The notes under the pieces were generated by a model, which worked only from the letters and a program-made list of their open reading frames with translations, was not told the origin of the DNA and ran no database searches. A DNA stretch of 38,371 nt from Solirubrobacteraceae bacterium (lineage in GTDB: Bacteria; Actinomycetota; Thermoleophilia; Solirubrobacterales; Solirubrobacteraceae): contig JAXDHK010000340.1 in the NCBI GenBank assembly GCA_034664545.1, positions 1-38,371 of the forward strand, written 5' to 3'. Below are positions 180 through 30,470 of this stretch, one piece after another. Positions within the stretch are counted from its first letter, which is position 1; every line of letters begins with the position of its first letter. The translations under genes were made by a program, and so were the position numbers.

Positions 180-680
180 ATGCCCAACAACGTGTTCAAA
201 GCCATCGACGCCGCCCTCGTGTTCGCCGTCGACGACGCCAGCTCACCCGAGGGTGCCGCCGCCGACAGCCTGATCTCCAACTACGACCTCGCCAACGTCG
301 TCGGCCGGCTCACCGACGTCACCGTCAATGTCACCAGTGCCATCCGGCCGTTCTTCGAGCTCGGCCAGCGCTACCCGACCCAGCTGCGGCCCGGGGTCGT
401 CCACGTCACCGGCACCGCCGGGCGCGCCCATGTGAACGGAGCGCTCCTACGCCTCCTGCTCGGTGACGGGGCCGCCAGCCCCCCCGGCGCGGCGAACTTC
501 GTCCAGCCGGCCCTGAACATAGTGACGACGCTCAAGGACCCGTCCTTTCCCGACAACCAGACCCGGGTCACCGTGTTCGGGGCCAAGTTCGCCTCCTGGA
601 CCTACCACATCCCGAGTGATGACTTCGTGATGGAGTCGGTCGCCTTCCAGGCGCTCCGTGTCTCCTTCGAAGAGAAGTGA
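180..680 (+). CDS. tail tube protein (cluster 1; not gp19-like, possibly XkdM/phage-tube type)
   Basis: 166-aa ORF with ATG 180 preceded by AGGAGG (170-175). It sits immediately after the sheath and before the chaperone. Size, position and beta-rich composition fit a tube protein. The family was not recognised by motif. Confidence 0.55.
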   Translation: MPNNVFKAIDAALVFAVDDASSPEGAAADSLISNYDLANVVGRLTDVTVNVTSAIRPFFELGQRYPTQLRPGVVHVTGTAGRAHVNGALLRLLLGDGAASPPGAANFVQPALNIVTTLKDPSFPDNQTRVTVFGAKFASWTYHIPSDDFVMESVAFQALRVSFEEK

Positions 681-683
681 TAC

Positions 684-1199
684 GTGCCGGTGTCCGCGTC
701 GGTGACCGAGGCCTCACTCTCGGCCCAGGATCTCCTGGGTCCGAGCACGCTGGTCCACGACATCCCGGTCCCCCCCGCGGTCCTCCGGCCGGGGCTTGAC
801 GTCGACCCCGGCTCACCAATCCGTCACGTCCGCCTCAGGCCGCTGACGGTGGCCACCCTCACCACCATCTCCCGGGCCGCCCGGGAGGACCCGAGCCTGG
901 TTCCGCTCCTCATGATCAAGGAGTCCCTGGTCGAGCCCGAGCTCGGACTCGACGGCGTCCGCCGGCTCCACGTCGGCCTCGTCCAGTTCCTCGTCAGCCG
1001 GATCAACCTGATCTCCGGCCTCACGGCTGACGGACAGGCCCTCGACGACGCCGTCGCCTCCCCCGCCGGCCAGATGCACGTCCTCCTCGCCCGCCATTTC
1101 GGCTGGACACCAGACCAGGTCGCCCAGCTCACCCCCGGGCAGGTGGCCGTCTACCTCGCCGGGGTCAGCCGCCTCCTCGACCTCGGCGCTGGCGCATGA
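684..1199 (+). CDS. tail assembly chaperone with fused C-terminal DUF6760-like segment
   Basis: GTG 684 lies 3 nt after the tube stop. The core (VRLRPLTVATL...LVQFLVSRINLISG) parallels the cluster-2 chaperone 27328-27711 (VMRLATAADE...LAHLQDLYNAIN). The C-terminal VLLARHFGWTPDQVAQLTPGQVAVYLAGVSRL aligns without gaps to AYLAYHLHWSHAELMHLDHRSRRGWVEQVSAL of the small ORF 27720-27848. Confidence 0.6.
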   Translation: MPVSASVTEASLSAQDLLGPSTLVHDIPVPPAVLRPGLDVDPGSPIRHVRLRPLTVATLTTISRAAREDPSLVPLLMIKESLVEPELGLDGVRRLHVGLVQFLVSRINLISGLTADGQALDDAVASPAGQMHVLLARHFGWTPDQVAQLTPGQVAVYLAGVSRLLDLGAGA

Positions 1200-2173: not shown

Positions 2174-2175
2174 CC

Positions 2176-2778: not shown

Positions 2779-2898
2779 CCGGGGCATCCGTGGTCGATCG
2801 CTCGACACCGTCTCCGATCGAGACCCCCCCAGGACACGGCGCCGGGGCCGATCCCCCCGAGACCGCTCCCCCTGGAAAGCACGCCTAGGCAGGCAGAC

Positions 2899-6369: not shown

Positions 6370-8728
6370 GCTCCCCCGACCCGAGGCCTCACCCGCCCCG
6401 AACGCCGCCGCCCAGGGGCGACTCGTCGCCTGGCTGGCCGACGATCGGGCCCAGCGGACGATCGCCATGCCCGCCGGCGACGTCACCGTCGTCTCGGAGC
6501 GGGGCGGCGGAAGCTCGGAGTACCGCTACGACCCCCGGGGGGACCTGGCGGAGCTGGTCGAGCCCGACGGGGGGCGGGTCGGCTTCGAGTACGACGACCG
6601 GCGTCGCCTCGGGGCCGTGGTCCGCCGGGGGGTCCGGACCGTTTTCAGCTATGACGACCACGACCGGTTGGCCGGGGTCGACGACGGCGCCGAGACCGGC
6701 GTCCGCCGCTTCCACCGGGACGCCGACGGGCGCCTGGTCGTCGTCCGCCAGGCCGACGGCACGACCCTGGCCTTCGTCTACGACGAGGCCGGCCGAGTCC
6801 GGGAGGGGCGGACCCCGACCGTGGCGACCGTCCACGACTACGACGACGTCGGGCGAATCACCGGGGTTCGCCAGACGCTCGACGGGGTGACGCTCGAGCT
6901 CCGACTCGACTTCGCCGTGGACGGCAGGCTGGCCGCGATGCGCGTGCCCGGGGCGAGCGTCCGCTACGCCTGGGACGAACGCGGGCGCCCGGCCTCGATC
7001 GGGCTCGGCGGCGACGCCGCGACGGCGCCCCTGGCCCGGTTCGCCTACGACGAGACCCGGCGGGAGACGGCGGTCACCCTCGCGAACGGGCTCGTCGAGC
7101 GGACCTGGGCCGACCCGGTCGACGGGCGCCTGCTCGAACGCCAGCTTCGGCGGGGCGACGGGCTCGTGCTTGGACGCCGGCACCGCCATGATCCGGCCGG
7201 TCGGATCATCGGGGACGGGACCCGGCGGTACGGCTACGACGACCTCGGGCGCCTGACCCGGGTCGAGGATGACCGAACCCGCGAGGTCTGGCGGTACGGC
7301 TACGACGCCCGGGACAACCGCGTCGAGACGACGGGACCCGAAACGGCCGGGGCGCGGTGCGAACACGACGAGGACGAGCTCCTGATGGTCCGAGCCGACG
7401 CGGGCGACACGCCCTACGAGCACGACTCCGCCGGCCGGCGGACCCACGCCGGCGCCGCCGACGGGGCGCGCACCTACCGCTACGACGCGGCCGGCGAGCT
7501 GCGTGAGGTTCTCCGAGACGGCGCTCTCGTGGCCCACCTGAGCTACGACCACAAGGGGCGGCTCGCCGCCGTCCGCCGGGCGGCACCCGTCACCGGGGCC
7601 GGGTCCCCGGAGGCCTACGGGCCCGCGGCGAGGACCGAGCGCTACCTCTACGGGCCCGACGACGAGCTCGTCGCGGTCACCGACGGGGCCGGGAGCCCGC
7701 TGCGCGTGATCGTCCGGACTCCACTCGGACCGATAGCCGAGATCCGGGACCCCGGCGGCCCCGACCAGGCCATCACGTTCCTCCACCTCGACCACCAGGG
7801 GACCTCCCACCTGGTCACCGACGAGACCGGCGGGGTGGCCGGGGAGTGGCGGTTCTGCCCGTTCGGGACCCCGTCCGGGGCGGGCCGGACCCGCCCCCGA
7901 TTCGCCGGTCGCGACTGGCACGCCGACCTCGGTCTCTACCGGTTCGGGGCGCGGTGGTATGACCCGGTGACGGGCCGCTTCCTCACGCCCGACTCGTTCA
8001 CCGGGGCCCCCGACGACGAGCGCCTGGTCCACCCGCTCGTCCCCGGGTCGGTCCAGCCCCTCGCCCGGGCCGAGCTCCTCGGAGGATGGCTCCAGCGGCC
8101 GCGGATCCGCAACCGGTACGCGTTCTGCGCCAACGACCCGGTCAACCGGATCGACCCCAACGGCCACTGGTCGTTCGGAGCGGCGCTGATGACCCTGCTC
8201 GGCGCGGTCTGGGCGCTCCCGAACACGATCTTCGGCCTCCTGCTCGAGATCACGTGCCTGATCGGCGAGGTCGTCCGGTGGGTGGTCTCGGCGCTCTCGA
8301 GCGGCGAGACCGACTGGGAATCGCCGGAATTCGGGGCGGCGGCCTCGAAGCGGCTGAACGCGTTCGGGCTCGTGTTCTCCGGGGGGTGGCTCGGGTCGTT
8401 CGCCAGCGTCCCGGCGCTCACCTTCGGGAACGTGTTCTTCGTCTACAAGAAGTGGGAGTCGCTGCCTGAGTTCAGCGCCCCGGGCGAGGTCCACCCGGCT
8501 GCCTACGGGGGGAAGGTGGCGATCCCGCGCCACGACACCCTCTACGAGCACGAGCTGTTCCACACCAAGCAGCAGGGTCGGTTCGGGCCGTTCTTCCACC
8601 TCGGGCTCCCCCTGTTCGGGGTCTACGAGTGGGACCTGCTGCTCAACGGACGGGCCGGGAGCGTGCTCGAGCAGGAGGCCCGCGACCACTCGGGGCGGCC
8701 GGCCCCGGCCGCGCCGGCGGGGGGCTGA
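6347..8728 (+). CDS. RHS/YD-repeat toxin with C-terminal HExxH (zincin-like) domain
   Basis: It has many YD repeats (YRYDPRGDL, FEYDDRRRL, FSYDDHDRL, YGYDDLGRL, YRYDAAGEL). It also has the RHS core end motif GLYRFGARWYDPVTGRFLTPDSF...NDPVNRIDPNGHW. A roughly 185-aa tail follows with hydrophobic segments and YEHELFHTKQQ. The GTG 6347 start overlaps the upstream ORF by 23 nt; in-frame ATG 6467 is an alternative start. Confidence 0.85.
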   Translation: MLRPSPPELPRPEASPAPNAAAQGRLVAWLADDRAQRTIAMPAGDVTVVSERGGGSSEYRYDPRGDLAELVEPDGGRVGFEYDDRRRLGAVVRRGVRTVFSYDDHDRLAGVDDGAETGVRRFHRDADGRLVVVRQADGTTLAFVYDEAGRVREGRTPTVATVHDYDDVGRITGVRQTLDGVTLELRLDFAVDGRLAAMRVPGASVRYAWDERGRPASIGLGGDAATAPLARFAYDETRRETAVTLANGLVERTWADPVDGRLLERQLRRGDGLVLGRRHRHDPAGRIIGDGTRRYGYDDLGRLTRVEDDRTREVWRYGYDARDNRVETTGPETAGARCEHDEDELLMVRADAGDTPYEHDSAGRRTHAGAADGARTYRYDAAGELREVLRDGALVAHLSYDHKGRLAAVRRAAPVTGAGSPEAYGPAARTERYLYGPDDELVAVTDGAGSPLRVIVRTPLGPIAEIRDPGGPDQAITFLHLDHQGTSHLVTDETGGVAGEWRFCPFGTPSGAGRTRPRFAGRDWHADLGLYRFGARWYDPVTGRFLTPDSFTGAPDDERLVHPLVPGSVQPLARAELLGGWLQRPRIRNRYAFCANDPVNRIDPNGHWSFGAALMTLLGAVWALPNTIFGLLLEITCLIGEVVRWVVSALSSGETDWESPEFGAAASKRLNAFGLVFSGGWLGSFASVPALTFGNVFFVYKKWESLPEFSAPGEVHPAAYGGKVAIPRHDTLYEHELFHTKQQGRFGPFFHLGLPLFGVYEWDLLLNGRAGSVLEQEARDHSGRPAPAAPAGG

Positions 8729-21462: not shown

Positions 21463-21644
21463 CCCAGCCGGGCCCCGCCGGACCGACTCAGGTCACCCGA
21501 AGGGTGGACGCCGGTCCATCCCCGATCCATCTCCTTTCCACCCTTGAGCCGATGTGGCGTGGTGCCCACCCTCGGATGATTAAGGCCAGGTGAGCTACGA
21601 CGTACGAGGTTCCATCCACATCGAATGCCGGAGCCCGGATCCGC

Positions 21645-21992
21645 GTGCATCTCGTCGACCTCCCGCAGATGCTCCACGACGCCGTCCGCGACGCTCTGGC
21701 CGGAGCGGCGTTCGAGCTGGCGATGGGCCCTCCCCCTCCCGGGCCGGCGCCCGGGGTCACCGTTCTCGTCATGCCGGCCCGGGTCGAGCCCGGTCTCTGG
21801 ATCGAGCAGCTGACACGCCGCCCCGACGCATCGATCCTCTTGATCGAGCCCCGGGACTGCGAGGCCGCCCTCGTCGAGCTGCGCCCGGAGCGCCGGTATC
21901 TCGGCATCCTCGACGCCCCACGGATCGCCGATGCCATCCGTTCGGCCTCGGCCTGGGAGGCGCGGGTGACGGCGGCCGTGACCACGAAGTGA
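21645..21992 (+). CDS. small hypothetical protein translationally coupled to the ATPase
   Basis: 115-aa ORF with GTG 21645 (ATG 21669 is an alternative start) and high GC3. Its TGA (21990-21992) overlaps ATG 21992 of the ATPase. No family was recognised. Confidence 0.45.
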   Translation: MHLVDLPQMLHDAVRDALAGAAFELAMGPPPPGPAPGVTVLVMPARVEPGLWIEQLTRRPDASILLIEPRDCEAALVELRPERRYLGILDAPRIADAIRSASAWEARVTAAVTTK

Positions 21993-23992
21993 TGGAGGCC
22001 GGCGCCGTCACCGCCCCGGTCACCCCCCTGCTCGAATGGGCGGCGGCGGTACTCGCCGGCGCGCTCGACGCCGCCGGAGAGCTGCCGGCCGCGGCCGGCG
22101 GGATCGAGGCCCTCCGAGGGCTCGTGCTCTCGCCCGAGTCCGTCCGCGACCGGCTCCGGAGCGCCCGCTCCGCGCCGGTTGCCGCCTCTGCGCCACCGCC
22201 CCTCCCGGACTCGCTGCTCGGGCCCCTGCGCCGGCTCGGGGCCGACGCCTTCGAGCTGGCGGCGATCGGTCTCGCCGTCGCCGTCGAGCTCGACCCGGCG
22301 GCCGCCCGCGCCGTGGCCTACCTCCACGACGACATGCGACTTCGCCGCCTCTCCGTCGACCTCCTCGCCGCCCTCTGCGCCGATCTGGCCGGCGACTGGA
22401 CGGCCGGGAGGCGATGCCTGGCCCCGTCCTCCCGGCTGGTGACCCGCGGACTCCTCGAGGTCACTGCCGCCGGGGGCGACGCCGAGGTCCGGGCGACCCC
22501 GGCGCTCGCCGGTCACGTCGTCGGGATGCACCACCTCGCCCCCGAGCTCGTCGCGGCGCTCGGCACGGCGGCCGCCATCCCGGTCGCGACCCATCATCCG
22601 GCGGTGACGCGCTGGGCAGAGGCCCCCGATCAGGCCGTTCTCCACGTGCACGGAGCCGGTCCCGACGTTCTCGGTGCCCGCGTCGCGGCCTCCCTCGACC
22701 GGGCGGGCCGTCCCGCCGTCGAGGTCGACCTGGCCGCCCTCGACGAGGCGCACGCGCGCGGCCTCTCCGCCCACTGCCTGCTCGGCGATCTCGCGGCCAT
22801 GCTCGTGCTCCCGCGCGAGGGCCACCCCGCGCTCGGATCCCTGCTCGGCTCGATCGACGCGGTGTGCCTCGTGGACCAGGGACTCGCCCTCTGGCAGTCC
22901 CCCTCGGCGAGCACGCTCCGCCCGGTGGCCTCCGTGGAGCTGGCCTCACTCGAGGTCTCCGAACGCGCAGCGGCGGTCGCCGAGGGGCTCCGCGACGGCG
23001 GCATCCGTCTCGCCGACCCCGACGGAGCGCTTCCCTTCGCCCGGCGCTACCGCCACGGCCCCGACGCGATCGCCAAGGTCGCCGGCGCGACCCGGGCGCG
23101 CCTGCGCGCCGAGGAGCGCTCGACGGCGCGCGACACCGACATCCTCGCCGTGGCGGCGGTGCTCGCCGGCGCCCCGCTGCGCGACCTCGCCACCCGGGTG
23201 GACCGGGTCGCCGGTTGGGCCGACCTGGCCGTGCCCGAACCGATCGCCGACGAGCTTCGGGAGCTCTGCGCCCGGGTCGACGTCCGAGACGCCGTCCTCG
23301 GCGACCGGGGCTACGCGCGCACGCTCGGCACCGCCCGGGGGGTGAGCGCCCTGTTCGCCGGGCCGAGCGGGGCCGGCAAGACGCTCGCCGCCTCGGTCGT
23401 GGCCTGCGAGCTCGGGCTCGCCCTCTACCGCGTCGACCTCGCCCGGATCGTCTCGAAGTACATCGGCGAGACCGAGCGCAACCTCGAAGCCGTCTTCGCC
23501 GCCGCCGAGTCGACCGACGTCGTGCTCCTGTTCGACGAGGCCGATGCCCTGTTCGGCCGGCGCTCCGAGGTCCACGACGCCCACGACCGGTACGCCAACC
23601 TCGAGGTCGCCTACCTGCTCCAGCGCATGGAGGTCTACGACGGCGTGGCGATCCTCTCGACCAACCTCCTGCGCAACCTCGACGAGGCCTTCACCCGGCG
23701 CCTGGACTTCCGTGTCCTCTTCCCGTTTCCCGCCGCGGCCGAGCGTCGGCGGATCTGGCGCCTGATGTGGCCGCCCGGCGAGCGACTCGCCGACGACGTC
23801 GACCTCGACGCGCTCGCCCTCGAGCACGAGCTCTCGGGCGGGATGATCCGCAACGCCGCGCTCGCCGCCGCCCACCTGGCCGAGACCGAGCGGGCGATGG
23901 TCTCGAGTCGCCATCTCGAGCACGCGATCGCCCGCGAGCACGACAAGCTCGGGCACCTCCCGCGCATCTCGACCGCGGAGCCCGGGCGATGA
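21992..23992 (+). CDS. eCIS AAA+ ATPase (Afp15/Pvc15-like)
   Basis: Walker A GPSGAGKTLAA, Walker B VVLLFDEADALFG, and a CDC48-like C-terminus. The N-terminal LRRLGADAFELAAIGLAVAVELDPAAARAVAYLHDDMRLRRLSVDLL is typical of Afp15-type ATPases. The start was chosen at the TGATG overlap with the upstream ORF. Confidence 0.9.
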   Translation: MEAGAVTAPVTPLLEWAAAVLAGALDAAGELPAAAGGIEALRGLVLSPESVRDRLRSARSAPVAASAPPPLPDSLLGPLRRLGADAFELAAIGLAVAVELDPAAARAVAYLHDDMRLRRLSVDLLAALCADLAGDWTAGRRCLAPSSRLVTRGLLEVTAAGGDAEVRATPALAGHVVGMHHLAPELVAALGTAAAIPVATHHPAVTRWAEAPDQAVLHVHGAGPDVLGARVAASLDRAGRPAVEVDLAALDEAHARGLSAHCLLGDLAAMLVLPREGHPALGSLLGSIDAVCLVDQGLALWQSPSASTLRPVASVELASLEVSERAAAVAEGLRDGGIRLADPDGALPFARRYRHGPDAIAKVAGATRARLRAEERSTARDTDILAVAAVLAGAPLRDLATRVDRVAGWADLAVPEPIADELRELCARVDVRDAVLGDRGYARTLGTARGVSALFAGPSGAGKTLAASVVACELGLALYRVDLARIVSKYIGETERNLEAVFAAAESTDVVLLFDEADALFGRRSEVHDAHDRYANLEVAYLLQRMEVYDGVAILSTNLLRNLDEAFTRRLDFRVLFPFPAAAERRRIWRLMWPPGERLADDVDLDALALEHELSGGMIRNAALAAAHLAETERAMVSSRHLEHAIAREHDKLGHLPRISTAEPGR

Positions 23993-24879
23993 TCGGGGCC
24001 GCCGACGCCATCCTCCGCCGGGTCCTGACCGACGGCGTGCCCGGCATGACCTCCGACCGGATCTCCTTCCAACCGCCCGACGAGGTCTGGCGAACCCGCG
24101 TCGGCGCGAGCAAGGGCGTCAGCATCGACGTCTACCTGGCCGAGATCGACGAGGATCGCGACCTGCGCACCAGCGCCGTCGACCGGGTGATCGACGGCGG
24201 GATCGCCCGCGACCGCCGGGCACCTGAGCGGGTGCGCCTGACCTACCTGATCTCGGCCTGGAACGCCGCCAAGGACTCGGTGGCGACCGCCGCCACCGAG
24301 GCCGAGCACGACACCCTGTCCTTCGTCCTTCAGGCGCTGCTCCGGGCGTCCCCGCTCAACGCGTCACGGATCCTGCCCCCGACGGCCCTCGCCAGCGTCC
24401 CGGTCGGGATGCGCGAAACGGACCTTCCGACGAGGATCGCCGTCTCCGAGGCCCTCGACAAGCTCAGCCACTTCTGGGGCACCATGGGCGCCACCCACCC
24501 GCACAAGCCGGTGATACCCGTCCTCGTGACGGTGCCCGTGACCTACCCGGAGACGATCACCGACGGGGTCGTGTTCACGATCGACACCGGCCTCGGCTCC
24601 GAGCGCCTGATCGAGGTCGGCGGGCACGTGTACGACGCGGTCGGACCCAACGCCGCCCATCCCCGTCCGGTCGCCGACGCCGCGGTCGTGTTCACCACGC
24701 TCGCCGGCCGCCGAGCGGCCGGTACCCGGGCCGCGAGCGACGGCCGCTTCGTCGTCGACGGCCTGACTCCCGGCACCTATCACCTGAGCTTCACGGCCGA
24801 CGGCTACGCAGCTCCCCCGCCGGTTCCCATAACCCTGCCCACACCCTCCGGCGGCTCCCTCGAGCTGCTGTTCACCTGA
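23989..24879 (+). CDS. DUF4255 tail cap/terminator protein (Afp16-like) with C-terminal CarboxypepD_reg-like beta-sandwich
   Basis: ATGA overlap (23989/23992). The N-terminus ILRRVLTDGVPG...ISFQPPDE...SIDVYLAEIDEDRDLR and RLTYLISAW fit DUF4255. The C-terminal SDGRFVVDGLTPGTYHLSFTADGY is a carboxypeptidase-regulatory-like motif. Confidence 0.75.
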   Translation: MIGAADAILRRVLTDGVPGMTSDRISFQPPDEVWRTRVGASKGVSIDVYLAEIDEDRDLRTSAVDRVIDGGIARDRRAPERVRLTYLISAWNAAKDSVATAATEAEHDTLSFVLQALLRASPLNASRILPPTALASVPVGMRETDLPTRIAVSEALDKLSHFWGTMGATHPHKPVIPVLVTVPVTYPETITDGVVFTIDTGLGSERLIEVGGHVYDAVGPNAAHPRPVADAAVVFTTLAGRRAAGTRAASDGRFVVDGLTPGTYHLSFTADGYAAPPPVPITLPTPSGGSLELLFT

Positions 24880-24893
24880 AGCCAAGGAGAGCC

Positions 24894-26879
24894 ATGTCCG
24901 TCCAGGTGTCCTACCCCGGCGTCTACATCGAGGAGTTCGAGCCCGCCGCCCCGATCGAGGGTGTGTCCACCAGCCACGCCGCCTTCATCGGCATCGCCGA
25001 GCGGGGACCGAGCAACGTGCCGACGCTCGTCACCAGCCTGGACGACTTCACGCGCGTCTTCGGCGGCCCCGTGGACGGAGCAGTGCCCTACTACCTGCCC
25101 ACGAGCGCCGAGGGCTTCTTCCGCAACGGGGGAAGCGTCCTCTACGCGCTGCGCGTGTCGACGGCGGCCAACGCCTCCAAATCGTTCCTCTCCCGGGGCG
25201 CGAGCCCGCCGCCCGCCGCGCCGGTCCTCACGGCGACCGCGCTGACCGAGGGCGGCGCCGGCAACGGCATCGCGGTCACCGCGGCGGACTCGTCGGCGCT
25301 CGCCAAGGCCCTGGCGGCGATCAAGCCCACCCCGCCGCCCAAGCCGACGCTCGCGCTCGCCAACGCCTCGACGCCGGCGAGCGCCCTCGACCCCACCGGG
25401 CGGATCCTGACCGTGGCCCAGAGCTCGAGCTTCGCACCCGGCGACAACGTCCTCGTCGTCGACGCCACCAACAAGCGTCCGGGCACGATCAGCGCCGTTC
25501 CCGACTCCACGACGATCGTCCTCGGTGCGGGGCTGACCGGACCGCTCGCCGCCGGATCGACGGTGAAGCTCGCCGACCTCGCCCTCGGCGACACGCTCAT
25601 CCGCCTCACCGTGCCGCTGGGGCTGAACCTCCGCCAGGCGGTCCCGGCCGGGACGCTCGTGGCGATCGGAGCGACGGGATCGACCGAGGTCGCGGTCGTC
25701 GCCGCCGTCACCGCCGACTCGGTCACCCTGACCCGAGGGCTGAGCGTCGCCCACGCGCGCAACACGGCCGAGCTGGCCTCGGCGGAGTTCGATCTCACGG
25801 TGACGGGCACCGGCGGCGAGGTCGAGACGTTCACCTTGCTCTCGACCTCGCCGAACCATCCGCGCTACTGGAAGACGGCGACCGACTCGAGCGCGCTCGT
25901 GAGCTTCTCGCGACCGGACACGCTCCCGCCGGGCGCCGCGCCGGACCCCCGGCCCAAGCCCGCCACGATCACCCTCGCCGGGGCGGCCAACGACGATCCC
26001 GCCGCCGCGTGGAACACGCAGCTCGCGGCCAACATCCACGCCTACCTCGACGCGCTCGCCCGGATCGACGACATCAGCATCGTCGCCGTTCCGGGATGCA
26101 CCGAGCAGGGGGTGCAGCAGGCGCTCGTCGAGCACTGCGAGTCCCTCTGGGACCGCTTCGCCATCCTCGACGCCGTCAAGGGCGCCGACCTGACCGCTGT
26201 CCGCGCCCAGCGAGCCACCCTGACGGGCACGCTCGACAAGGGCTTCGGCGCGCTCTACCACCCCTGGATCCAGGTGCGCGACTCCGCCAAGCAGGCCATC
26301 GTCGACCATCCGCCGTCCGGGCACCTCGCCGGGATCTACGCGAAGATCGACACGACGCGAGGGGTCCACAACGCCCCGGCCAACCTCGGCATCGCCACCG
26401 CGCTCGGCGTGACCCAGCGCCTGACGAACGCCGACCAGAGCGTCGTGAACCTCGAGGGCGTGAACCTCATCCGAATCCTCCCCGGTCGCGGCGTCCCCGT
26501 GGTCTGGGGCGCGCGGACCACCGCGGGCGACCGCAACTGGCAGTACGTCAACATCCGCCGGCTGTTCCTCTTCCTCGAGGAGTCGATCCAGCAGGGCCTC
26601 CAGCCGAACGTCTTCCTGCCCAACGACCTCGCCCTCTGGGAGCGGGTCAAGCGCACGCTCAACGAGTTCCTCGGCCGGGTCTGGCGGGACGGCGCGCTGT
26701 TCGGCGCCACCGCCAAGGAGGCCTACTACGTCCGCGTCGACGAGGCGCTCAACCCCCCGAGCACGCGCAAGCTCGGGCGGCTGAACATCGAGATCGGCGT
26801 GCAGCCGGTGTACCCGGCCGAGTTCATCGTCGTCCGGATCGGCATCTGGGACGGCGGCAGCGACATCAGCGAGAGCTAG
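24894..26879 (+). CDS. contractile tail sheath protein (Afp2-4/Pvc2-like)
   Basis: AAGGAG RBS upstream. The N-terminus MSVQVSYPGVYIEEFEP...STSHAAFIGIAERGP is classical for sheath proteins. It also has YHPWIQV, NAPAN and GVNLIRILPGRGVPVWGARTT motifs. 661 aa. Confidence 0.92.
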   Translation: MSVQVSYPGVYIEEFEPAAPIEGVSTSHAAFIGIAERGPSNVPTLVTSLDDFTRVFGGPVDGAVPYYLPTSAEGFFRNGGSVLYALRVSTAANASKSFLSRGASPPPAAPVLTATALTEGGAGNGIAVTAADSSALAKALAAIKPTPPPKPTLALANASTPASALDPTGRILTVAQSSSFAPGDNVLVVDATNKRPGTISAVPDSTTIVLGAGLTGPLAAGSTVKLADLALGDTLIRLTVPLGLNLRQAVPAGTLVAIGATGSTEVAVVAAVTADSVTLTRGLSVAHARNTAELASAEFDLTVTGTGGEVETFTLLSTSPNHPRYWKTATDSSALVSFSRPDTLPPGAAPDPRPKPATITLAGAANDDPAAAWNTQLAANIHAYLDALARIDDISIVAVPGCTEQGVQQALVEHCESLWDRFAILDAVKGADLTAVRAQRATLTGTLDKGFGALYHPWIQVRDSAKQAIVDHPPSGHLAGIYAKIDTTRGVHNAPANLGIATALGVTQRLTNADQSVVNLEGVNLIRILPGRGVPVVWGARTTAGDRNWQYVNIRRLFLFLEESIQQGLQPNVFLPNDLALWERVKRTLNEFLGRVWRDGALFGATAKEAYYVRVDEALNPPSTRKLGRLNIEIGVQPVYPAEFIVVRIGIWDGGSDISES

Positions 26880-26888
26880 GAGACAGCC

Positions 26889-27326
26889 ATGACCACTGGG
26901 GTGCTGGTGGACCCATACCCGGGTTACAACTTCCACGTCGAGATCGACGGGATCAGCCGCGGGGCCTTCGAGGAGGTGACGGGCCTGGACTCGACCGTCG
27001 ACGTGGTCGAGTACCGGGAGGGCGGCTGGAACACCACGCCGCACAAGTTCCCGGGCCAGACCAAGCACGCGAACATCGTGCTCAAGCACGGGATGGCGAG
27101 CGACCGCGACCTCACCAACTGGCACCAGAACGTCGTCGAGGGCACGATCGACCGCCGGAACGGGTCGGTGATCCTCCTGGACCGCCGGGGAACCGAGGTC
27201 GCCAGATGGAACTTCATCCGGGCCTGGCCGACCAAGTACACCGCTCCGAGCTTCAACGCCAAGACGAGCGACATCGCGATCGAGACCCTCGAGCTGGCCC
27301 ACGAGGGCCTCGAGCGGGTGAGCTGA
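26889..27326 (+). CDS. tail tube protein (T4 gp19-like, Afp1/5-like)
   Basis: AGGAGA RBS upstream. DPYPGYNFHVEIDGISRGAFEEVTGLDSTVDVVEYREGG...KFPGQTKHANIVLKHG is the conserved eCIS/gp19 tube signature. 145 aa. Confidence 0.9.
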   Translation: MTTGVLVDPYPGYNFHVEIDGISRGAFEEVTGLDSTVDVVEYREGGWNTTPHKFPGQTKHANIVLKHGMASDRDLTNWHQNVVEGTIDRRNGSVILLDRRGTEVARWNFIRAWPTKYTAPSFNAKTSDIAIETLELAHEGLERVS

Positions 27327-27327
27327 G

Positions 27328-27711
27328 ATGTTCGAGGTCGAGCACCACTTCACCCTGCCGATGGGCCTGATCGACCGGGACGGGACGCTGCACCGCGACG
27401 GCGTCATGCGCCTGGCCACCGCGGCCGACGAGATCCTCCCCCTCCAGGACCCCCGCGTCCAGCGCAACCCCGCCTACCTGGCCCTGATCCTGCTCTCCCG
27501 GGTCGTGCTCCGCATCGGCGGCATCGAGGACGTCAACCCGCACACCATGGAGGGGCTGTTCGCCGCCGACCTCGCCCACCTCCAGGATCTCTACAACGCG
27601 ATCAACCGCATCGGCGGGAGCGAGCGCGTCTCCTGCCCGCACTGCGAGCGCGACTTCGAACTGGAGGTCGACCGCCTGGGGGGATCGCAGGCTATCCCCT
27701 CGACCGGGTGA
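27328..27711 (+). CDS. tail assembly chaperone-like protein (zero-frame product)
   Basis: ATG 27328 lies 1 nt after the tube stop; 127 aa. It sits between the tube and the tape-measure candidate. The core resembles the cluster-1 chaperone 684-1199. The slippery heptamer lies 25 nt before its stop. Confidence 0.65.
   Translation: MFEVEHHFTLPMGLIDRDGTLHRDGVMRLATAADEILPLQDPRVQRNPAYLALILLSRVVLRIGGIEDVNPHTMEGLFAADLAHLQDLYNAINRIGGSERVSCPHCERDFELEVDRLGGSQAIPSTG
27678..27684 (+). promoter_or_regulatory. candidate -1 programmed frameshift slippery heptamer G_GGG_GGA
   Basis: In the zero frame of 27328-27711 the codons are ctG GGG GGA, which is X_XXY_YYZ. The -1 frame is open from here through 27845 and encodes ...IAGYPLDRVNEEMAYLAYHLHW... 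Confidence 0.45.
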
Positions 27712-27725
27712 ACGAGGAGATGGCC
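27690..27725 (+). promoter_or_regulatory. stem-loop 5 nt downstream of the slippery site (possible frameshift stimulator)
   Basis: GGCTATCCCCTCG (27690-27702) pairs with CGAGGAGATGGCC (27713-27725). That gives 13 positions: 11 Watson-Crick pairs, 1 G:U wobble and 1 C:A mismatch, with a 10-nt loop. The 3' arm covers ATG 27720 and the adjacent GAGGAG. Confidence 0.4.
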
Positions 27726-27848
27726 TATCTCGCCTATCACCTGCACTGGTCCCACGCCGAGCTCATGCACCTCGACCACCGCAGCCGCCGCGGCTGGGTC
27801 GAGCAGGTCTCGGCGCTGAACGAGCGTGTCTCCGCGGGGGGCGTGTGA
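27720..27848 (+). CDS. small DUF6760-like eCIS protein segment (independent 42-aa ORF or -1 frame extension of the chaperone)
   Basis: MAYLAYHLHWSHAELMHLDHRSRRGWVEQVSALNE matches the small conserved protein I recall from eCIS loci. The same frame upstream encodes the family-typical YPLDRVNEE, but there is no ATG/GTG/TTG before GTG 27708. GAGGAG abuts ATG 27720 with no spacer. Confidence 0.55.
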   Translation: MAYLAYHLHWSHAELMHLDHRSRRGWVEQVSALNERVSAGGV

Positions 27849-28552
27849 CCCGCCCGCCGCGCATCGGACTCGCCGGCCAGGCCGCCGCCCGGGCGACGGC
27901 GCGGCGGCGAACCCGGTGCGGCGCGACGGTGGCCGGGGGCCGCCTGGAGGTCCCGGCGCCCCCCCTCGCCGCGAGCCTGCTGACGCGGCGGGCGCGGCTG
28001 GCGGCGCCCGGCGCCTGGGCCGTGCGCATCGAGCTGCGCCTCGCCCCGGTCACCGTGGTCCGGTCTGAGGCGTTGGCCGCCCCCGCGGCTTCGATCCTCG
28101 TGCCTGCCCCCCACGGAGACGCCCGACTCATCCCCGTGACCCCGGGCGCCAGCCCGGACCCCCCCGCGATGACGCTCTCGCGGGAGACGATCCGCGAGCG
28201 GATCGAGCGCACCGTCGAGCGGCTGGTCGCACGCGGCCGGCGCGAGGAGCCGCCTCGCCGCCTGGACGCCCCGGCCGTGCGCCTCGGCCCCGACCGGGCG
28301 GCCACGCCCGCGATGGCGCCGCCGGTGTTCACGAAGCTCGTCCTGCCCGTGCTCCCGGTCGCCGCCCGCGCCGCCGAGGCTGCCGGCTCGGACGGCGGGA
28401 GCGCGCCGCCCGCCGTGCTCGCGCCGCCCGCGGTGCCGGCAACCGGTCCGCTCCCGCAGGCCGCGCAGATCCCGAGGCTCGTCGAGGAGATCGTCGGTGA
28501 GCTCGAACGCCGCACCCGAGCCCAGCGCGAGCGCCGAGGGTGGCTGGGATGA
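27845..28552 (+). CDS. Pro/Ala/Arg-rich protein; tape-measure candidate of cluster 2
   Basis: GTGA overlap (27845/27848), 235 aa, high GC3. It sits between the chaperone and the LysM tube-initiator. Its C-terminal IPRLVEEIVGELERR is shared with 1196-2173. Confidence 0.45.
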   Translation: MTRPPRIGLAGQAAARATARRRTRCGATVAGGRLEVPAPPLAASLLTRRARLAAPGAWAVRIELRLAPVTVVRSEALAAPAASILVPAPHGDARLIPVTPGASPDPPAMTLSRETIRERIERTVERLVARGRREEPPRRLDAPAVRLGPDRAATPAMAPPVFTKLVLPVLPVAARAAEAAGSDGGSAPPAVLAPPAVPATGPLPQAAQIPRLVEEIVGELERRTRAQRERRGWLG

Positions 28553-29241
28553 GCGGGACGCTCGAGAACGCCCTGCTGGTGAACACGGTGACCAACGCCT
28601 TCGTGTCGGTGCAGTTCAACCCCGAGGACTACACGATCAACCGGGAGGTCCAGTACGCCCAGATCGGGGTCCCCGGCCTCTCGGCCCCGGTCGTCCAATT
28701 CGTCCACGGCAACGCGCAGACGCTCGAGATGGAGCTCTTCGTCGACACCCTGGAGAAGAGCTCCCAGGCCGAGGCCGGCAGCGACGTCCGCGAGCTGGTC
28801 AAGAAGATCACCTCGTTGATGGACATCGAGCCGACGGTGCACGCCCCGCCGCCGGTGCTCTTCACCTGGGGCAGCCTGAGCTTCAGCTGCGTGCTCCAGC
28901 GCGCCTCGCAGAAGTTCATCATGTTCAAGCCGGACGGGACTCCGGTGCGGGCAAAGGTGCAGGTGACGTTCAGCGAGTTCTGCAACGTCGAGCTCGAGGC
29001 CAAGGAGGTCAAGCGCCAGACCGCCGACTACTCGAAGCTCCACACGGTGTGCGCCGGCGACTCGCTGGCGCTGATCGCGTGGCGCGAGTACGGATACCCG
29101 ACCGCGTGGCGGCCGATCGCCCTGCGCAACGGTATCGACGACCCGCGACGCCTGCGGACGGGCGATGTGCTCGTGCTCCCGCGCCTGCCCTACCGAGACC
29201 GGGACACCGGGACGCTCTACGACGCCGGAGCGATCGCGTGA
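28549..29241 (+). CDS. LysM-domain tube-initiator/baseplate protein (Afp7-like)
   Basis: ATGA overlap (28549/28552); GTG 28540 is an alternative start. The N-terminus FVSVQFNPEDYTINREVQYAQIGVPGLSAPVVQFVHGNAQTLEMELF is the CIS tube-like domain. The C-terminal LysM reads HTVCAGDSLALIAWREYGYPTAWRPIALRNGIDDPRRLRTGDVLVLP. Confidence 0.85.
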   Translation: MSGTLENALLVNTVTNAFVSVQFNPEDYTINREVQYAQIGVPGLSAPVVQFVHGNAQTLEMELFVDTLEKSSQAEAGSDVRELVKKITSLMDIEPTVHAPPPVLFTWGSLSFSCVLQRASQKFIMFKPDGTPVRAKVQVTFSEFCNVELEAKEVKRQTADYSKLHTVCAGDSLALIAWREYGYPTAWRPIALRNGIDDPRRLRTGDVLVLPRLPYRDRDTGTLYDAGAIA

Positions 29242-30470
29242 GCGCTCCGCCCCGCTACGCCCCGGAGATCCGCATCGCCTTCGACCGCGTCCCGGCGCCG
29301 GCCGAGCTGCGCGGCTCGGTGACATCGGTCAGCTGTCAGACCGGCCTCGGCGGCTCCGACCGGCTCGAGCTCTCGCTCGTCAACGAGCGGTTGCGCTGGC
29401 TGGACGACCCGCTGCTGCGCCTCGGAGCCGAGATCTCGTTCGCCATCGGGTACGCACCCGACTCGCCGACCCAGATCTTCGTCGGGGAGGTGACGGGCAC
29501 CGAGGCGGCGTTCCCGAGCGACGGAGTACCTACGCTCCGCGTCGTCGCCCAGGACCGGCGCACGCGCCTCGCCGAGTCCTCACCGACCCGGCTGTTCGCG
29601 GTCCCCATCCCCGGGTACGGGGTACAGCCGCTCCCGGATCTCGGCGTGGCGCCGCTGATCGGGCTCGAGCACCAGCTCGTCACCTTCGTCGACCCGCTCG
29701 CCGCCTTCCTCTCCGCCGCGCTCAGCCTCGCCGACCTCGACGCCACGAGTGAGGACCCGGGCGGACGCCAGAAGCTCGCGCGCAAGCAGATCGGCCAGAG
29801 CTCGCTCGACTTCCTCGGGAAGATCGCGGCCGAGAACGGCTGGGAGGTGCTCATGGAGCACGGCCCGATCGCCGGCGGCTGGGTGATCCGCCTGATGTCC
29901 CCGGCCAGCGTCCTGGCCCCAGAGGAGACGCTGCGGTACGGTCAATCGCTGATCGACTTCACTCCGAGGCTCTCGACCGTCGGACAGGTCGCGGCCGTCT
30001 CGGTCAAGGTCTGGCGTCCCGAGATCAAGCTCGAGCTCACCGTGACCGTCGGCTACGACTGGGAGAAGCGGGCGCTCAGGATCGAGATCACCCCGGGCTT
30101 CCTCGACAAGGTGGCCAAGGGCGCCAAGGCCGGGTCGGAGACCAAGACCCTTCTCGTCAACGAGCCGGTCACCGTGGCCACGGCCCCGCGGATGATCCTC
30201 TCGAAGCTCCTGCCCAAGCTCAACCGACGGCTGACGGCGAGCGGCTCGTGCGTCGGGACCCCGACGATCGCCGCCGGCGAAGTGCTCCGGATCGAGGGGG
30301 TCGGCGAGCAGTTCGGAGGGCTGTATCGGGTCACCCAGGCGCGTCACTCCTTCGACGGCGGGGGCTACCGCACCAGTTTCGACGTGCGCAAGGAGATCTG
30401 GTTCGACCCGATCCCCCTCACCGCCCAGGGCGCCGTCCGCCTCATCCCGAACCCGCTTCCCGTGGCCTGA
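29238..30470 (+). CDS. gpD-like (late control D) baseplate hub protein, cluster 2
   Basis: GTGA overlap (29238/29241), 410 aa. It has IFVGEVTGTEAAFPSDGVPTLRVVAQDRRTRL, SSLDFLGKIAAENGWEV and the C-terminal GLYRVTQARHSFDGGGYRTSFDVRKE, typical of the gpD family. Confidence 0.8.
   Translation: MSAPPRYAPEIRIAFDRVPAPAELRGSVTSVSCQTGLGGSDRLELSLVNERLRWLDDPLLRLGAEISFAIGYAPDSPTQIFVGEVTGTEAAFPSDGVPTLRVVAQDRRTRLAESSPTRLFAVPIPGYGVQPLPDLGVAPLIGLEHQLVTFVDPLAAFLSAALSLADLDATSEDPGGRQKLARKQIGQSSLDFLGKIAAENGWEVLMEHGPIAGGWVIRLMSPASVLAPEETLRYGQSLIDFTPRLSTVGQVAAVSVKVWRPEIKLELTVTVGYDWEKRALRIEITPGFLDKVAKGAKAGSETKTLLVNEPVTVATAPRMILSKLLPKLNRRLTASGSCVGTPTIAAGEVLRIEGVGEQFGGLYRVTQARHSFDGGGYRTSFDVRKEIWFDPIPLTAQGAVRLIPNPLPVA

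What the first reader, a model, noticed from the sequence alone, without database searches (positions are those of the whole stretch)
27328..27848. Predicted -1 programmed frameshift joining the cluster-2 chaperone to the DUF6760-like ORF; cluster 1 encodes the same two parts as one ORF
The chaperone frame contains G_GGG_GGA (27678-27684). Five nt downstream lies a 13-position stem (27690-27702 / 27713-27725).
- The -1 frame is open from the heptamer and reads IAGYPLDRVNEEMAYLAYHLHW... up to 27845.
- The family-typical YPLD segment has no start codon in front of it. ATG 27720 has no spaced SD and lies inside the stem.
- A slip would give a 173-aa fusion. The cluster-1 homologue (684-1199) is a single 171-aa ORF whose C-terminus aligns without gaps to the small ORF (8 identities in 32, including L-A-x-H-x-x-W).
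- The genomic position, between tube and tape-measure candidate, is exactly where phages use the conserved G/GT (lambda) or E/E' (P2) chaperone frameshift.
Basis: partly seen in the sequence, partly recalled or inferred. Interest (0 to 1): 0.7.

Follow-up and report, generated by a model that had tools for sequence, protein, structure and literature searches.

The report
Programmed frameshift in injection-system chaperone gene
A short run of G's followed by an RNA hairpin at the end of a tail-assembly chaperone gene almost certainly makes some ribosomes slip back one base and add a second small domain. The same signal is kept in hundreds of bacterial and archaeal injection-system loci that are currently annotated as two separate genes.

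Summary
The chaperone-like ORF (27328-27711) contains G_GGG_GGA (27678-27684) in frame. A 13-position hairpin (27690-27702/27713-27725) starts 5 nt downstream, and the -1 frame reads a DUF6760 domain up to 27848.

The heptamer alone is not above chance in this G-rich window. The support comes from comparison:
- In 80 of 81 loci (window plus 79 of 80 fetched genomes from Actinobacteria, Acidobacteria, Cyanobacteria, Proteobacteria, Chloroflexi and archaea), a G-run heptamer sits at a fixed position.
- DUF6760 continues in the -1 frame.
- 36 loci have no start codon for DUF6760 at all.
- The hairpin is kept, with compensatory changes and strong synonymous-site constraint.
- The few fused homologues whose DNA I read differ by extra G's in the run, and their junction (..GGV.GYPL..) matches the predicted product.

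A sequencing error, independent initiation and transcriptional slippage are all poorly supported.

The chaperone part matches phage tail assembly chaperones (PHROG 508). It is therefore a lambda G/GT-type or Mu gp41-type programmed -1 frameshift in contractile injection systems. RefSeq does not annotate it, and I found no mention in the literature I could search.

The claim that cluster 1 encodes the same parts as one ORF is only moderately supported (hhalign probability 71-81%).

The parts
26889..27326 (+). Tail tube gene (T4 gp19 family) directly upstream of the chaperone gene
   Evidence: Pfam Phage_T4_gp19, E 4.5e-48
27328..27711 (+). Zero-frame ORF of 127 aa: tail assembly chaperone-like protein with a C-terminal CPxC zinc-ribbon-like motif. 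This is the short product.
   Evidence: PHROG 508 'tail assembly chaperone', E 3.8e-7. RefSeq orthologues are named 'phage tail assembly protein'. Thousands of homologues of 120-132 aa.
27663..27667 (+). Shine-Dalgarno-like GGAGG, 10 nt upstream of the heptamer. Possible upstream stimulator, as in dnaX. It also encodes the conserved Glu of F-E-x-E.
   Evidence: GGAG occupies alignment positions -30 to -27 in 61-76 of 78 sequences. A role is inferred and not separable from the coding constraint.
27678..27684 (+). Slippery heptamer G_GGG_GGA
   Evidence: In frame. The equivalent heptamer lies 15 nt before the Tyr codon in 78 of 80 loci. Counts: GGGGGGG 32, GGGGGAA 24, GGGGGGA 20, GGGGGAG 2, GGGAAAA 1, GGGGAAA 1.
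27685..27689 (+). 5-nt spacer. Its first base, T, is invariant in 78 of 78 sequences.
   Evidence: Column statistics
27690..27725 (+). Stimulatory stem-loop: 5' arm 27690-27702, 10-nt loop 27703-27712, 3' arm 27713-27725, with one C.A mismatch (27697/27718)
   Evidence: -20.3 kcal/mol, z = -3.84. 90.6% of cells are paired across 77 distinct sequences, against 34-62% when partners are slid. Compensatory pairs CG66/UA10 and GC58/CG8/AU2. RNAalifold recovers the base of the stem. The Val codon in the 3' arm is GTA in 62 of 68 cases against a background of 6-18%.
27684..27848 (+). -1 frame extension (54 codons plus stop), a DUF6760 domain, read only after the shift. The predicted long product is 173 aa with junction ...DRLGG|IAGYPLDR...
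   Evidence: Pfam PF20546, E 1.9e-11. No start codon before the conserved GYPL. Fused homologues P0007, P0012, P0021, P0036 and P0048 have the junction GG[VG]xGYPL.
27845..28552 (+). Pro/Ala/Arg-rich 235-aa ORF whose GTG start overlaps the DUF6760 stop (GTGA). Candidate tape-measure-like partner (inferred).
   Evidence: No Pfam, NCBIfam or PHROG match. The same position holds an unannotated ORF of variable length in relatives: 212-247 aa in L081/L082, and, after a second tube gene, 524 aa in Nostoc and 737 aa in Methanoperedens.
28540..29241 (+). Tube initiator (CIS_tube plus LysM; Afp7/Cis7-like), which closes the tube / chaperone / candidate tape-measure module
   Evidence: Pfam CIS_tube E 4.2e-37, LysM E 9.5e-4
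684..1199 (+). Cluster-1 171-aa single ORF: probable remote analogue of the fused product. The C-terminal ARHFGWTPDQV..LTPGQ segment aligns with DUF6760. It has no zinc ribbon and no frameshift.
   Evidence: BLASTP not significant. hhalign probability 48% for a single sequence, 71% and 81% profile against profile, E 1.3e-5. Family members are uniformly 161-191 aa single ORFs.

Best explanation
This is a programmed -1 ribosomal frameshift in the tail assembly chaperone gene of a contractile injection system (CIS/eCIS).

Proposed mechanism:
- Most ribosomes translate 27328-27711 and release the 127-aa chaperone.
- A fraction pause on the 12-bp hairpin that starts 5 nt after G_GGG_GGA.
- The P-site tRNA-Gly (GGG) and A-site tRNA-Gly (GGA) re-pair one base back (GGG, GGG).
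- Translation then continues in the -1 frame to 27848. This gives a 173-aa protein in which the chaperone is joined through a flexible ..LGG-IAG.. linker to a three-helix DUF6760 domain.

Proposed function, by analogy with lambda G/GT, P2 E/E+E' and Mu gp41/FS-gp41:
- The common chaperone part is proposed to hold the tape-measure-like protein encoded downstream.
- The DUF6760 extension is proposed to recruit tube subunits.
- The fixed low ratio of long to short product would be needed for tube assembly.

Shown here: the signal, its conservation, the structure covariation, the lack of any independent start, and the kinship with tail assembly chaperones.

Inferred: that ribosomes actually shift, the efficiency, and the binding partners.
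For: 1. Conservation of the arrangement. The window plus 79 of 80 fetched loci have a G-run heptamer, 15 nt before the Tyr codon of GYPL in 78 and 18 nt in two. DUF6760 is in the -1 frame in all of them. They come from Actinomycetota, Acidobacteriota, Cyanobacteriota, Chloroflexota, Proteobacteria, Verrucomicrobiota, Nitrospirota, Methanoperedens, ANME-2, Methanothrix and others.

2. The shift window is pinned to the G-run. The -1 frame is closed by a stop as near as 18 nt before the Tyr codon in five loci. The zero frame stops 0 codons after the heptamer in 17 loci and 1 codon after it in 40.

3. No independent start. 36 of 80 loci have no ATG, GTG or TTG in the DUF6760 frame before GYPL, and only 8 have one between the heptamer and GYPL. 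RefSeq had to use an ATA start (Nostoc) or an internal TTG that truncates the domain (Rhodococcus).

4. Hairpin. 90.6% of cells are paired against 34-62% for slid controls, and the covariation score beats all 500 shuffles. Tyr TAC/TAT covaries with Val GTN / Ile-Met ATN (66 CG, 10 UA, 1 broken). Gly GGC / Arg CGC covaries with Ala GCC/GCG. The rare Val codon GTA is used in 21 of 26 high-GC loci (background 6%) and in 41 of 42 other loci (background 18%).

5. Natural fusions. P0007 and P0012 have G8 where relatives have G7, and P0021 has G9. Their junction sequence equals the predicted shift product, and they still carry the hairpin.

6. Not a read error in this contig. The 127-aa protein cluster is seen on 4 contigs. 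Relatives at 76-88% identity are nearly all 127 aa (one 129 aa), and the four close relatives aligned end ..LGGS.AIPS.G.

7. Chaperone identity and place.
- PHROG 508 tail assembly chaperone, E 3.8e-7.
- Foldseek hits to T4-like baseplate hub assembly proteins (E 4e-6), a tape-measure chaperone (E 2.6e-3) and Mu FS-gp41 (E 2.6e-2, probability 1.00).
- The gene lies directly after the gp19 tube gene in a locus with AAA ATPase, Pvc16_N, sheath, CIS_tube/LysM, Phage_base_V, PAAR, gp25 and Baseplate_J.

8. AlphaFold model. Mean pLDDT is 85.9. The only stretch below 50 is residues 116-119, exactly the junction. This is consistent with two domains on a flexible link.
Against: - There is no experimental evidence here or in any paper I could search: no peptide, Ribo-seq or reporter data.
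- An all-G heptamer is not among the classical efficient bacterial motifs (Y = A or U).
- 24 loci have G_GGG_GAA, where A-site re-pairing would need a mid-codon G.U. The exact slip mode (tandem, or P-site only) may therefore differ or be unusual.
- Both stem arms encode highly conserved residues (GYPL and EEVA), so part of the pairing is a by-product of protein conservation. Only the synonymous-site and compensatory evidence is independent of that.
- The heptamer alone is not above chance in the window.
- The tape-measure identity of the next ORF is unproven.
- In the window the GTGA overlap at 27708-27711 could also allow some reinitiation.
Confidence: 0.82

Rival explanations
1. Independent translation. 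DUF6760 would be a separate small protein started at GTG 27708 (overlapping the chaperone stop as GTGA, by termination-reinitiation coupling) or at ATG 27720. The G-run would be incidental.
For: The GTGA overlap exists in the window. RefSeq annotates separate 'DUF6760 family protein' genes. The Pfam local match in the window starts at the residue encoded by GTG 27708.
Against: - A start codon at that position (+5 codons from Tyr) occurs in only about 5 of 78 loci.
- 36 of 80 loci have no canonical start before GYPL.
- The conserved GG[IV]xGYPL segment lies upstream of these starts, and the Pfam profile covers it in relatives.
- No spaced Shine-Dalgarno sequence precedes either start, and both lie inside the loop or 3' arm of the hairpin.
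- RefSeq starts are ATA or an internal TTG.
Confidence: 0.06
2. Transcriptional slippage. RNA polymerase would add one G in the G6 run, so that a subset of mRNAs encodes the fusion in frame. The protein would be the same but the step different.
For: A one-base insertion in the run gives exactly the same product. Homopolymer runs are the substrate of such slippage. Length variants of the run (G6, G8, G9) occur in assemblies.
Against: - Many loci have only G5 (26), G4 (2) or G3 followed by A's (L007 G_GGA_AAA, a classical ribosomal heptamer). By established knowledge this is far shorter than the 8-9 or more identical bases used by bacterial RNA polymerase slippage.
- A conserved hairpin placed 5 nt downstream, with covariation, is the hallmark of ribosomal -1 frameshifting and has no known role in transcript slippage.
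- The register of the run relative to the zero frame is fixed. That matters for tRNA re-pairing but not for a polymerase.
Confidence: 0.07
3. Artefact or DNA-level variation. The true gene would be a simple fusion (G7) and the contig would carry a homopolymer error, or the run would be a phase-variable tract switching between fused and unfused states.
For: The window is a metagenome contig. Fused G8/G9 versions and one G6 version (L057, a nanopore-based MAG) exist in public assemblies.
Against: - The -1 arrangement is found in 79 of 80 independent species-representative genomes, including isolate genomes (Kribbella, Streptomyces, Embleya, Okeania, Fischerella, Mitsuaria, Microvirga) and complete plasmids.
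- Fusions are a small minority: about 12 of the best 120 homologues, several of them with additional frame errors.
- The same 127-aa product is seen on 4 contigs.
- The hairpin conservation is unexplained by this view.
Confidence: 0.04

Closest known systems
Lambda gpG/gpGT and the conserved tail assembly chaperone frameshift of long-tailed phages (Xu, Hendrix and Duda 2004, Mol Cell 16:11; cited from my own knowledge and listed as reference 42 in PMC3711429)
   Same: - Two overlapping ORFs sit after the tube or major tail gene.
- A -1 slip on a G-starting heptamer (lambda G_GGA_AAG; one locus here, L007, has G_GGA_AAA) occurs near the end of the first ORF.
- The second ORF has no start of its own.
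- The long product is the chaperone plus an extra domain.
   Different: - The host element is a non-viral contractile injection system, and there was no hit in 50,697 phage genomes.
- The heptamer is mostly all-G.
- A strongly conserved hairpin lies 5 nt downstream.
- The chaperone carries a CPxC zinc-ribbon-like motif.
- The extension is the DUF6760 family.
- There is no detectable sequence similarity to gpG or gpT.
Mu gp41 / FS-gp41 and P2 gpE / gpE+E' (chaperone frameshifts of contractile-tailed phages)
   Same: Both belong to contractile tails, with the chaperone between the tube and tape-measure genes. The predicted fold of the fused homologue P0007 matches Mu FS-gp41 (Foldseek probability 1.00, E 2.6e-2, rmsd 3.6 over 108 columns) and a Burkholderia phage tape-measure chaperone. 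PHROG 508 also matches.
   Different: The structural match is weak in E-value and covers only the N-terminal domain. The slippery sites differ (P2 uses T_TTT_TTG, from my own knowledge). The partner tape measure is not identified here.
E. coli dnaX -1 frameshift (A_AAA_AAG with an upstream Shine-Dalgarno-like element and a downstream stem-loop; from my own knowledge)
   Same: Both show a three-part architecture. Here that is an SD-like GGAGG 10 nt upstream (27663-27667), the heptamer, and a stable stem-loop 5 nt downstream.
   Different: In dnaX the shifted frame terminates at once to give a shorter protein, whereas here it adds a 54-residue domain. A role for the SD-like element here is only inferred, because it also encodes a conserved Glu.
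Cis6/Afp6/Pvc6 spike plug of CIS (PMC8894136, PMC12210884)
   Same: Both are small proteins encoded between the tube genes and the Cis7 tube initiator of CIS loci, so DUF6760 could be mistaken for Cis6.
   Different: DUF6760 sequences from the window and from an Anabaena locus find no chain in the PDB, although the paper reports a partial atomic model of Cis6 (I did not check whether that model is in the PDB). DUF6760 lacks its own start and is attached to the chaperone.

Membership tests
Tail assembly chaperone with conserved programmed frameshift (G/GT type) | Two overlapping ORFs lie immediately downstream of the tube or major tail gene and upstream of the tape measure gene | tested here: inconclusive
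   The position directly after the gp19 tube gene is met. The next ORF (27845-28552) has no detectable tape-measure similarity. It is only a candidate, based on its position and its variable length in relatives.
Tail assembly chaperone with conserved programmed frameshift (G/GT type) | A slippery sequence lies near the 3' end of the first ORF, in register, and is conserved among relatives | tested here: met
   G_GGG_GGA at 27678-27684. An equivalent heptamer is found in 80 of 81 loci, at a fixed position in 78.
Tail assembly chaperone with conserved programmed frameshift (G/GT type) | The second ORF has no initiation signal of its own, and its conserved sequence begins at the slip site | tested here: met
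   The window has no start in the 122 codons before Tyr. 36 of 80 loci have none at all. GG[IV]xGYPL is conserved from the heptamer onward.
Tail assembly chaperone with conserved programmed frameshift (G/GT type) | Sequence or fold kinship of the first ORF with known chaperones | tested here: met
   PHROG 508, E 3.8e-7. Foldseek matches to Mu FS-gp41, a tape-measure chaperone and T4-like hub assembly proteins. Pfam and NCBIfam gave no chaperone family.
Tail assembly chaperone with conserved programmed frameshift (G/GT type) | Both short and long products are made at a fixed ratio and both are required for tail assembly | not testable with these tools
   This needs proteomics, a reporter assay and genetics.
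Canonical -1 ribosomal frameshift signal | An X_XXY_YYZ heptamer that allows re-pairing of both tRNAs | tested here: met
   The window's G_GGG_GGA fits (X = G, Y = G, Z = A). Across the family, 53 of 80 fit strictly (GGGGGGG, GGGGGGA, GGGAAAA) and 27 do not (GGGGGAA, GGGGGAG, GGGGAAA).
Canonical -1 ribosomal frameshift signal | A stable downstream RNA structure lies 5-9 nt after the heptamer and is supported by covariation | tested here: met
   5-nt spacer. -20.3 kcal/mol, z = -3.84. 90.6% paired, 6 pairs with double changes, 0 of 500 shuffles reach the covariation score. Synonymous-site constraint.
Pfam DUF6760 (PF20546) | Score above the gathering threshold | tested here: met
   44.3 bits against 27, E 1.9e-11 for the -1 frame translation. 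Relatives score up to 74.6 bits.
Contractile injection system (eCIS/CIS, Afp/PVC-like) locus | Sheath, tube, Pvc16/Afp16 cap, AAA+ ATPase, LysM tube initiator, spike, PAAR, gp25 and Baseplate J in one cluster | tested here: met
   Pfam hits for all of these between 21590 and 36031.
Cis6/Afp6 spike plug | Sequence similarity to the modelled Cis6 chains | tested here: not met
   No PDB chain matches DUF6760. This was a sequence-level test only.

The most novel reading that the evidence does not exclude
One ancient recoding cassette (G-run heptamer plus a 12-bp hairpin) would be a universal, so far unannotated part of a large lineage of contractile injection systems in both Bacteria and Archaea. 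It would produce a hidden chaperone-DUF6760 fusion protein. It would also imply that these systems, which are described as lacking a typical tape measure, assemble their tube through a phage-like chaperone and tape-measure module. The variable, low-complexity ORF downstream would be the cryptic ruler. This would also be one of the most widely conserved -1 frameshift signals known outside phages and IS elements, and one that works on archaeal ribosomes.
Probability: 0.55. Interest if true: 0.75.

Novelty: new member of a known kind. Interest (0 to 1): 0.62.

Why it matters
1. Annotation. RefSeq splits this into 'phage tail assembly protein' and a 'DUF6760 family protein' with forced ATA or truncated TTG starts. 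At least about 600 species-representative genomes and thousands of metagenomic genes carry the chaperone, and all but one of the 80 loci inspected share this split-gene layout. The real long product is missing from protein databases.

2. Injection-system biology. Surveys state that lineage II eCIS and the Streptomyces CIS lack a typical tape measure and contain genes of unknown function (PMC6899500, PMC10066040). A conserved chaperone with a G/GT-type frameshift gives two of those genes a testable role. It also points to the adjacent variable ORF as the length-determining or cargo-like partner. This is relevant for engineering these particles as delivery devices.

3. Recoding. This is an all-G slippery site with a deeply conserved hairpin, shared by bacteria and methanogen/ANME archaea. 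It is a clean natural test set for how -1 frameshifting works on non-classical heptamers and on archaeal ribosomes.

Tried and rejected
- Window-only statistics. GGGGGGA is not enriched (11 against 19.9 expected), so the heptamer count cannot carry the claim.
- NCBIfam gave no family for either part. Pfam gave only sub-threshold zinc-ribbon hits for the chaperone.
- PDB sequence searches with the chaperone profile and two DUF6760 sequences found nothing relevant. The Foldseek PDB search found nothing significant; the best relevant hit was YqbN 3klu at probability 0.28.
- The phage genome collection gave no tblastn match, so this chaperone family is not shared with sequenced phages at that sensitivity.
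- The representative search with a fused profile was meant to find lineages where fusion is the norm. The few junction-spanning representatives mostly look like error-ridden reads, so no such lineage was found.
- I considered equating DUF6760 with the Cis6 spike plug and rejected it.
- Literature searches for DUF6760, eCIS plus frameshift, contractile injection plus slippery sequence or ribosomal frameshift, and Afp6/Pvc6/Cis6 found no description of this frameshift. Paywalled papers were not searchable.
- The pairwise alignment of the cluster-1 ORF to the fusion was not significant.
- The promoter/terminator scan of 24500-29500 found nothing.
Full report
**What is in the window**

Cluster 2 of the window is a contractile injection system locus. 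Pfam finds the following, in order:
- an AAA ATPase (21590-23992);
- a Pvc16_N cap protein;
- a sheath gene (24894-26879);
- a T4 gp19-type tube gene (26889-27326);
- then, after the region in question, a CIS_tube/LysM tube initiator (28540-29241);
- Phage_base_V, PAAR, gp25 and Baseplate_J.

Between the tube and the initiator lie three ORFs:
- a 127-aa ORF (27328-27711);
- a small ORF in the -1 frame that ends at 27848;
- a Pro/Ala/Arg-rich 235-aa ORF (27845-28552).

The 127-aa ORF reads ...GAC CGC CTG GGG GGA TCG.... So G_GGG_GGA (27678-27684) is in the frameshift register. From 27684 the -1 frame reads IAGYPLDRVNEEMAYLAYHLHW.... This is a DUF6760 domain (E 1.9e-11). In that frame there is no ATG, GTG or TTG in the 122 open codons upstream of the Tyr codon. 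The first are GTG 27708 and ATG 27720.

Five bases after the heptamer, 27690-27702 pairs with 27713-27725. The hairpin has 12 pairs and one C.A mismatch, -20.3 kcal/mol, z = -3.84.

On its own the heptamer means little, because GGGGGGA is not enriched in this G-rich window.

**Comparative test**

A search with the conceptual 173-aa fusion found thousands of homologues.
- Most are 120-132 aa chaperone-only proteins.
- About a dozen of the best 120 are 159-227 aa and carry DUF6760.
- In those that keep the zinc-ribbon motif intact (P0007, P0012, P0021, P0034, P0036, P0048), the junction reads ..GG[VIG]x[GR][YR]PL.., mostly ..GGVxGYPL... This is the sequence predicted for a -1 shift in the window (..LGG-IAGYPL..).

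A scan of one genome per species returned at least 598 matching loci. The 80 kept span Actinomycetota, Acidobacteriota, Gemmatimonadota, Cyanobacteriota, Chloroflexota, Proteobacteria, Verrucomicrobiota, Nitrospirota, Bacillota, Spirochaetia and several archaea (Methanoperedens, ANME-2, Methanothrix, Hydrothermarchaeota).

In the window and 79 of these 80 loci, the DUF6760 reading frame is -1 relative to the chaperone. It continues directly from a G-run that starts 15 nt before the Tyr codon (18 nt in two loci). The heptamers are:

| Heptamer | Loci |
|---|---|
| GGGGGGG | 32 |
| GGGGGAA | 24 |
| GGGGGGA | 20 |
| GGGGGAG | 2 |
| GGGAAAA | 1 |
| GGGGAAA | 1 |

GGGAAAA is the classical G_GGA_AAA type.

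The zero frame stops at variable distances after the heptamer:

| Sense codons between heptamer and stop | Loci |
|---|---|
| 0 | 17 |
| 1 | 40 |
| 5-26 | 23 (the window has 8) |

The zero-frame tail is therefore not conserved as protein. Its apparent A-T/I-P-S motif is the shadow of GYPL in the other frame.

The -1 frame is closed by a stop as close as 18 nt before the Tyr codon in five loci. Together with the early zero-frame stops, this confines any frame change to the G-run itself.

36 of the 80 loci have no canonical start codon at all in the DUF6760 frame before GYPL.

The single exception, L057, comes from a nanopore-based MAG. It has one G fewer than its relatives, most simply a homopolymer error.

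**The hairpin**

Alignment of 78 sequences shows that the stem seen in the window is a family feature. The consensus arms are GGCUACCCCCUC(G) and (C)GAGGAGGUAGCC, encoding G-Y-P-L and E-E-V-A.
- 90.6% of cells form standard pairs, against 34-62% when the 3' partners are slid by 1-3 columns.
- The covariation score exceeds all 500 shuffles.

Two pairs change on both sides repeatedly:
- The third base of the Tyr codon pairs with the first base of the Val/Ile/Met codon: C-G in 66, U-A in 10, and 1 broken. The window has the U-A version (TAT...ATG).
- The first base of Gly/Arg pairs with the third base of Ala: G-C in 58, C-G in 8, A-U in 2.

Because both arms encode conserved residues, I looked at synonymous sites.
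- The Val codon in the 3' arm is GTA in 21 of 26 loci with at least 60% G+C, where GTA is 6% of Val codons in neighbouring genes.
- It is GTA in 41 of 42 other loci, where the background is 18%.
- The second Glu codon is GAG in 78 of 78, and Pro is CCC in 69 of 78.

RNAalifold independently recovers the base of the stem.

A Shine-Dalgarno-like GGAG(G) lies 10-11 nt upstream of the heptamer in most loci (27663-27667 in the window). It overlaps a conserved Glu codon, so its role is only a possibility.

**Rivals**

- *Sequencing error or a plainly fused gene.* This is excluded by the number of independent genomes with the same arrangement, including isolates and closed plasmids. It is also excluded by the close 127-aa relatives of the window protein. 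The fused versions whose DNA I read have extra G's: G8 where relatives have G7 (twice), and G9 (once). They still carry the hairpin with its GTA codon, so they look like recent +1G derivatives or assembly errors of the frameshift arrangement. Other 'fused' representatives carry further frame errors.
- *Independent initiation at GTG 27708 or ATG 27720.* These starts are not conserved. They would cut off the conserved GG[IV]xGYPL segment, which the Pfam profile covers in relatives. They lack a spaced ribosome-binding site. RefSeq could only annotate DUF6760 genes with an ATA start (Nostoc) or an internal TTG (Rhodococcus).
- *Transcriptional slippage.* It would give the same protein. However, runs of G5, G4 or G3 followed by A's in 29 loci are too short. 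In addition, a downstream hairpin at 5 nt and a fixed codon register are features of ribosomal slippage (plus established knowledge).

**What it does**

The first ORF matches PHROG 508, tail assembly chaperone (E 3.8e-7).

An AlphaFold model of the fused homologue P0007 has mean pLDDT 85.9. It shows an alpha/beta N-domain, a short zinc-ribbon-like segment, a junction of low confidence at residues 116-119, and a three-helix DUF6760 domain. Its best viral fold matches are:
- T4-like baseplate hub assembly proteins;
- a Burkholderia phage tape-measure chaperone;
- Mu FS-gp41, itself a frameshift product.

The gene order of tube, chaperone, -1 extension, variable unannotated ORF and tube initiator is kept even in a Methanoperedens MAG, where a second tube gene follows the extension.

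By analogy with lambda G/GT, I infer two roles. The shared chaperone part would bind the downstream tape-measure-like protein. The DUF6760 extension would recruit tube subunits. This functional step is not shown.

DUF6760 is not the Cis6 spike plug. No PDB chain matches it, although the Anabaena paper reports a partial atomic model of Cis6.

**Cluster 1**

The 171-aa ORF 684-1199 belongs to a family of uniformly single ORFs of 161-191 aa. BLASTP against the conceptual fusion is not significant. Profile-profile comparison aligns its C-terminal half (..LVQFLVSRIN..ARHFGWTPDQVAQLTPGQ..) with the end of the chaperone domain plus DUF6760, at probability 71-81% and E about 1e-5. So the idea of one ORF for both parts is plausible but only moderately supported. 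The N-terminal halves were not aligned.

**Novelty**

The frameshift of tail assembly chaperones is textbook for phages. I found no paper that mentions it for contractile injection systems. CIS surveys describe these loci as lacking a typical tape measure and containing genes of unknown function (PMC6899500, PMC10066040). RefSeq annotates two genes.

I therefore file it as a new member of a known kind. It is notable for its breadth (bacteria and archaea), its all-G slip site and its unusually well conserved stimulatory hairpin.

Confidence that a -1 ribosomal frameshift joins the two ORFs is about 0.8. Confidence in the G/GT-like assembly role is about 0.6.

Noticed in passing
Proteins P0004, P0008, P0022, P0023, P0029, P0032 (Gallionella) and P0037: Homologues of about 210-260 aa. 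The four whose sequences were read (P0004, P0023, P0032, P0037) are tandem duplications of the chaperone domain in one ORF. In P0004 and P0023 each copy ends in the ..SPGES / ..SPGS motif that marks the slip site elsewhere. How or whether they frameshift is unknown.
   Followed up: no
L057:4300-4480 (Acidobacteriaceae MAG, long-read assembly): This is the only fetched locus where DUF6760 lies in the +1 frame. The run is G6 followed by TAGTGGGC, where relatives have G7 followed by TAGTTGGC. It is probably a homopolymer error, but it could be a natural length variant.
   Followed up: partly
L081/L082:3001-3534, L083:170-697, L084:343-873: Fused chaperone-DUF6760 genes carry G8 or G9 runs and still keep the downstream hairpin, including the rare GTA codon. 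The G-run is evidently a hot spot for length change in DNA or in assemblies.
   Followed up: partly
L085:6363-6533 (Nostoc sp. UHCC 0926 plasmid pn3) and L086:3384-3527 (Rhodococcus sp. WB1 pWB1): RefSeq annotates 'DUF6760 family protein' with an ATA start codon (Nostoc) or with an internal TTG that removes the conserved GYPLGT (Rhodococcus). No ribosomal slippage is annotated.
   Followed up: yes
window 1196-2173 and 27845-28552: Both tail clusters have, right after the chaperone-type gene, a Pro/Ala-rich low-complexity ORF. The two end in similar C-terminal helices (IPDDLMDQLTAELEFEFLRRYGR against IPRLVEEIVGELERRTRAQRERRGW). They may be a shared, unannotated tape-measure-like or plug protein family.
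   Followed up: no
window 180-8728 (cluster 1): A second tail-like module. It contains a tube-like ORF (weak Phage_tube_2 match), the 171-aa chaperone analogue, a DNA_circ_N protein (2176-2778), a 1156-aa ORF with weak tape-measure PHROG hits (2899-6369) and an RHS-repeat protein (6347-8728).
   Followed up: partly
L073:366-7838 (Methanoperedens MAG) and other archaeal loci L036, L044, L066, L067, L078, L079: Archaeal loci carry the slip site and the -1 DUF6760 frame, and six of the seven keep the GTA codon (L067 has the compensated TAT/ATA pair). Gene order was checked only in L073. The heptamers are G_GGG_GAA in six and G_GGG_AAA in L078. If functional, this is a -1 frameshift signal shared between bacterial and archaeal ribosomes.
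   Followed up: partly
window 27678-27740: The minimum-free-energy fold of the longer segment extends the hairpin by pairing the G-run itself (27678-27685) with 27727-27734. I did not test whether this extension is conserved.
   Followed up: no
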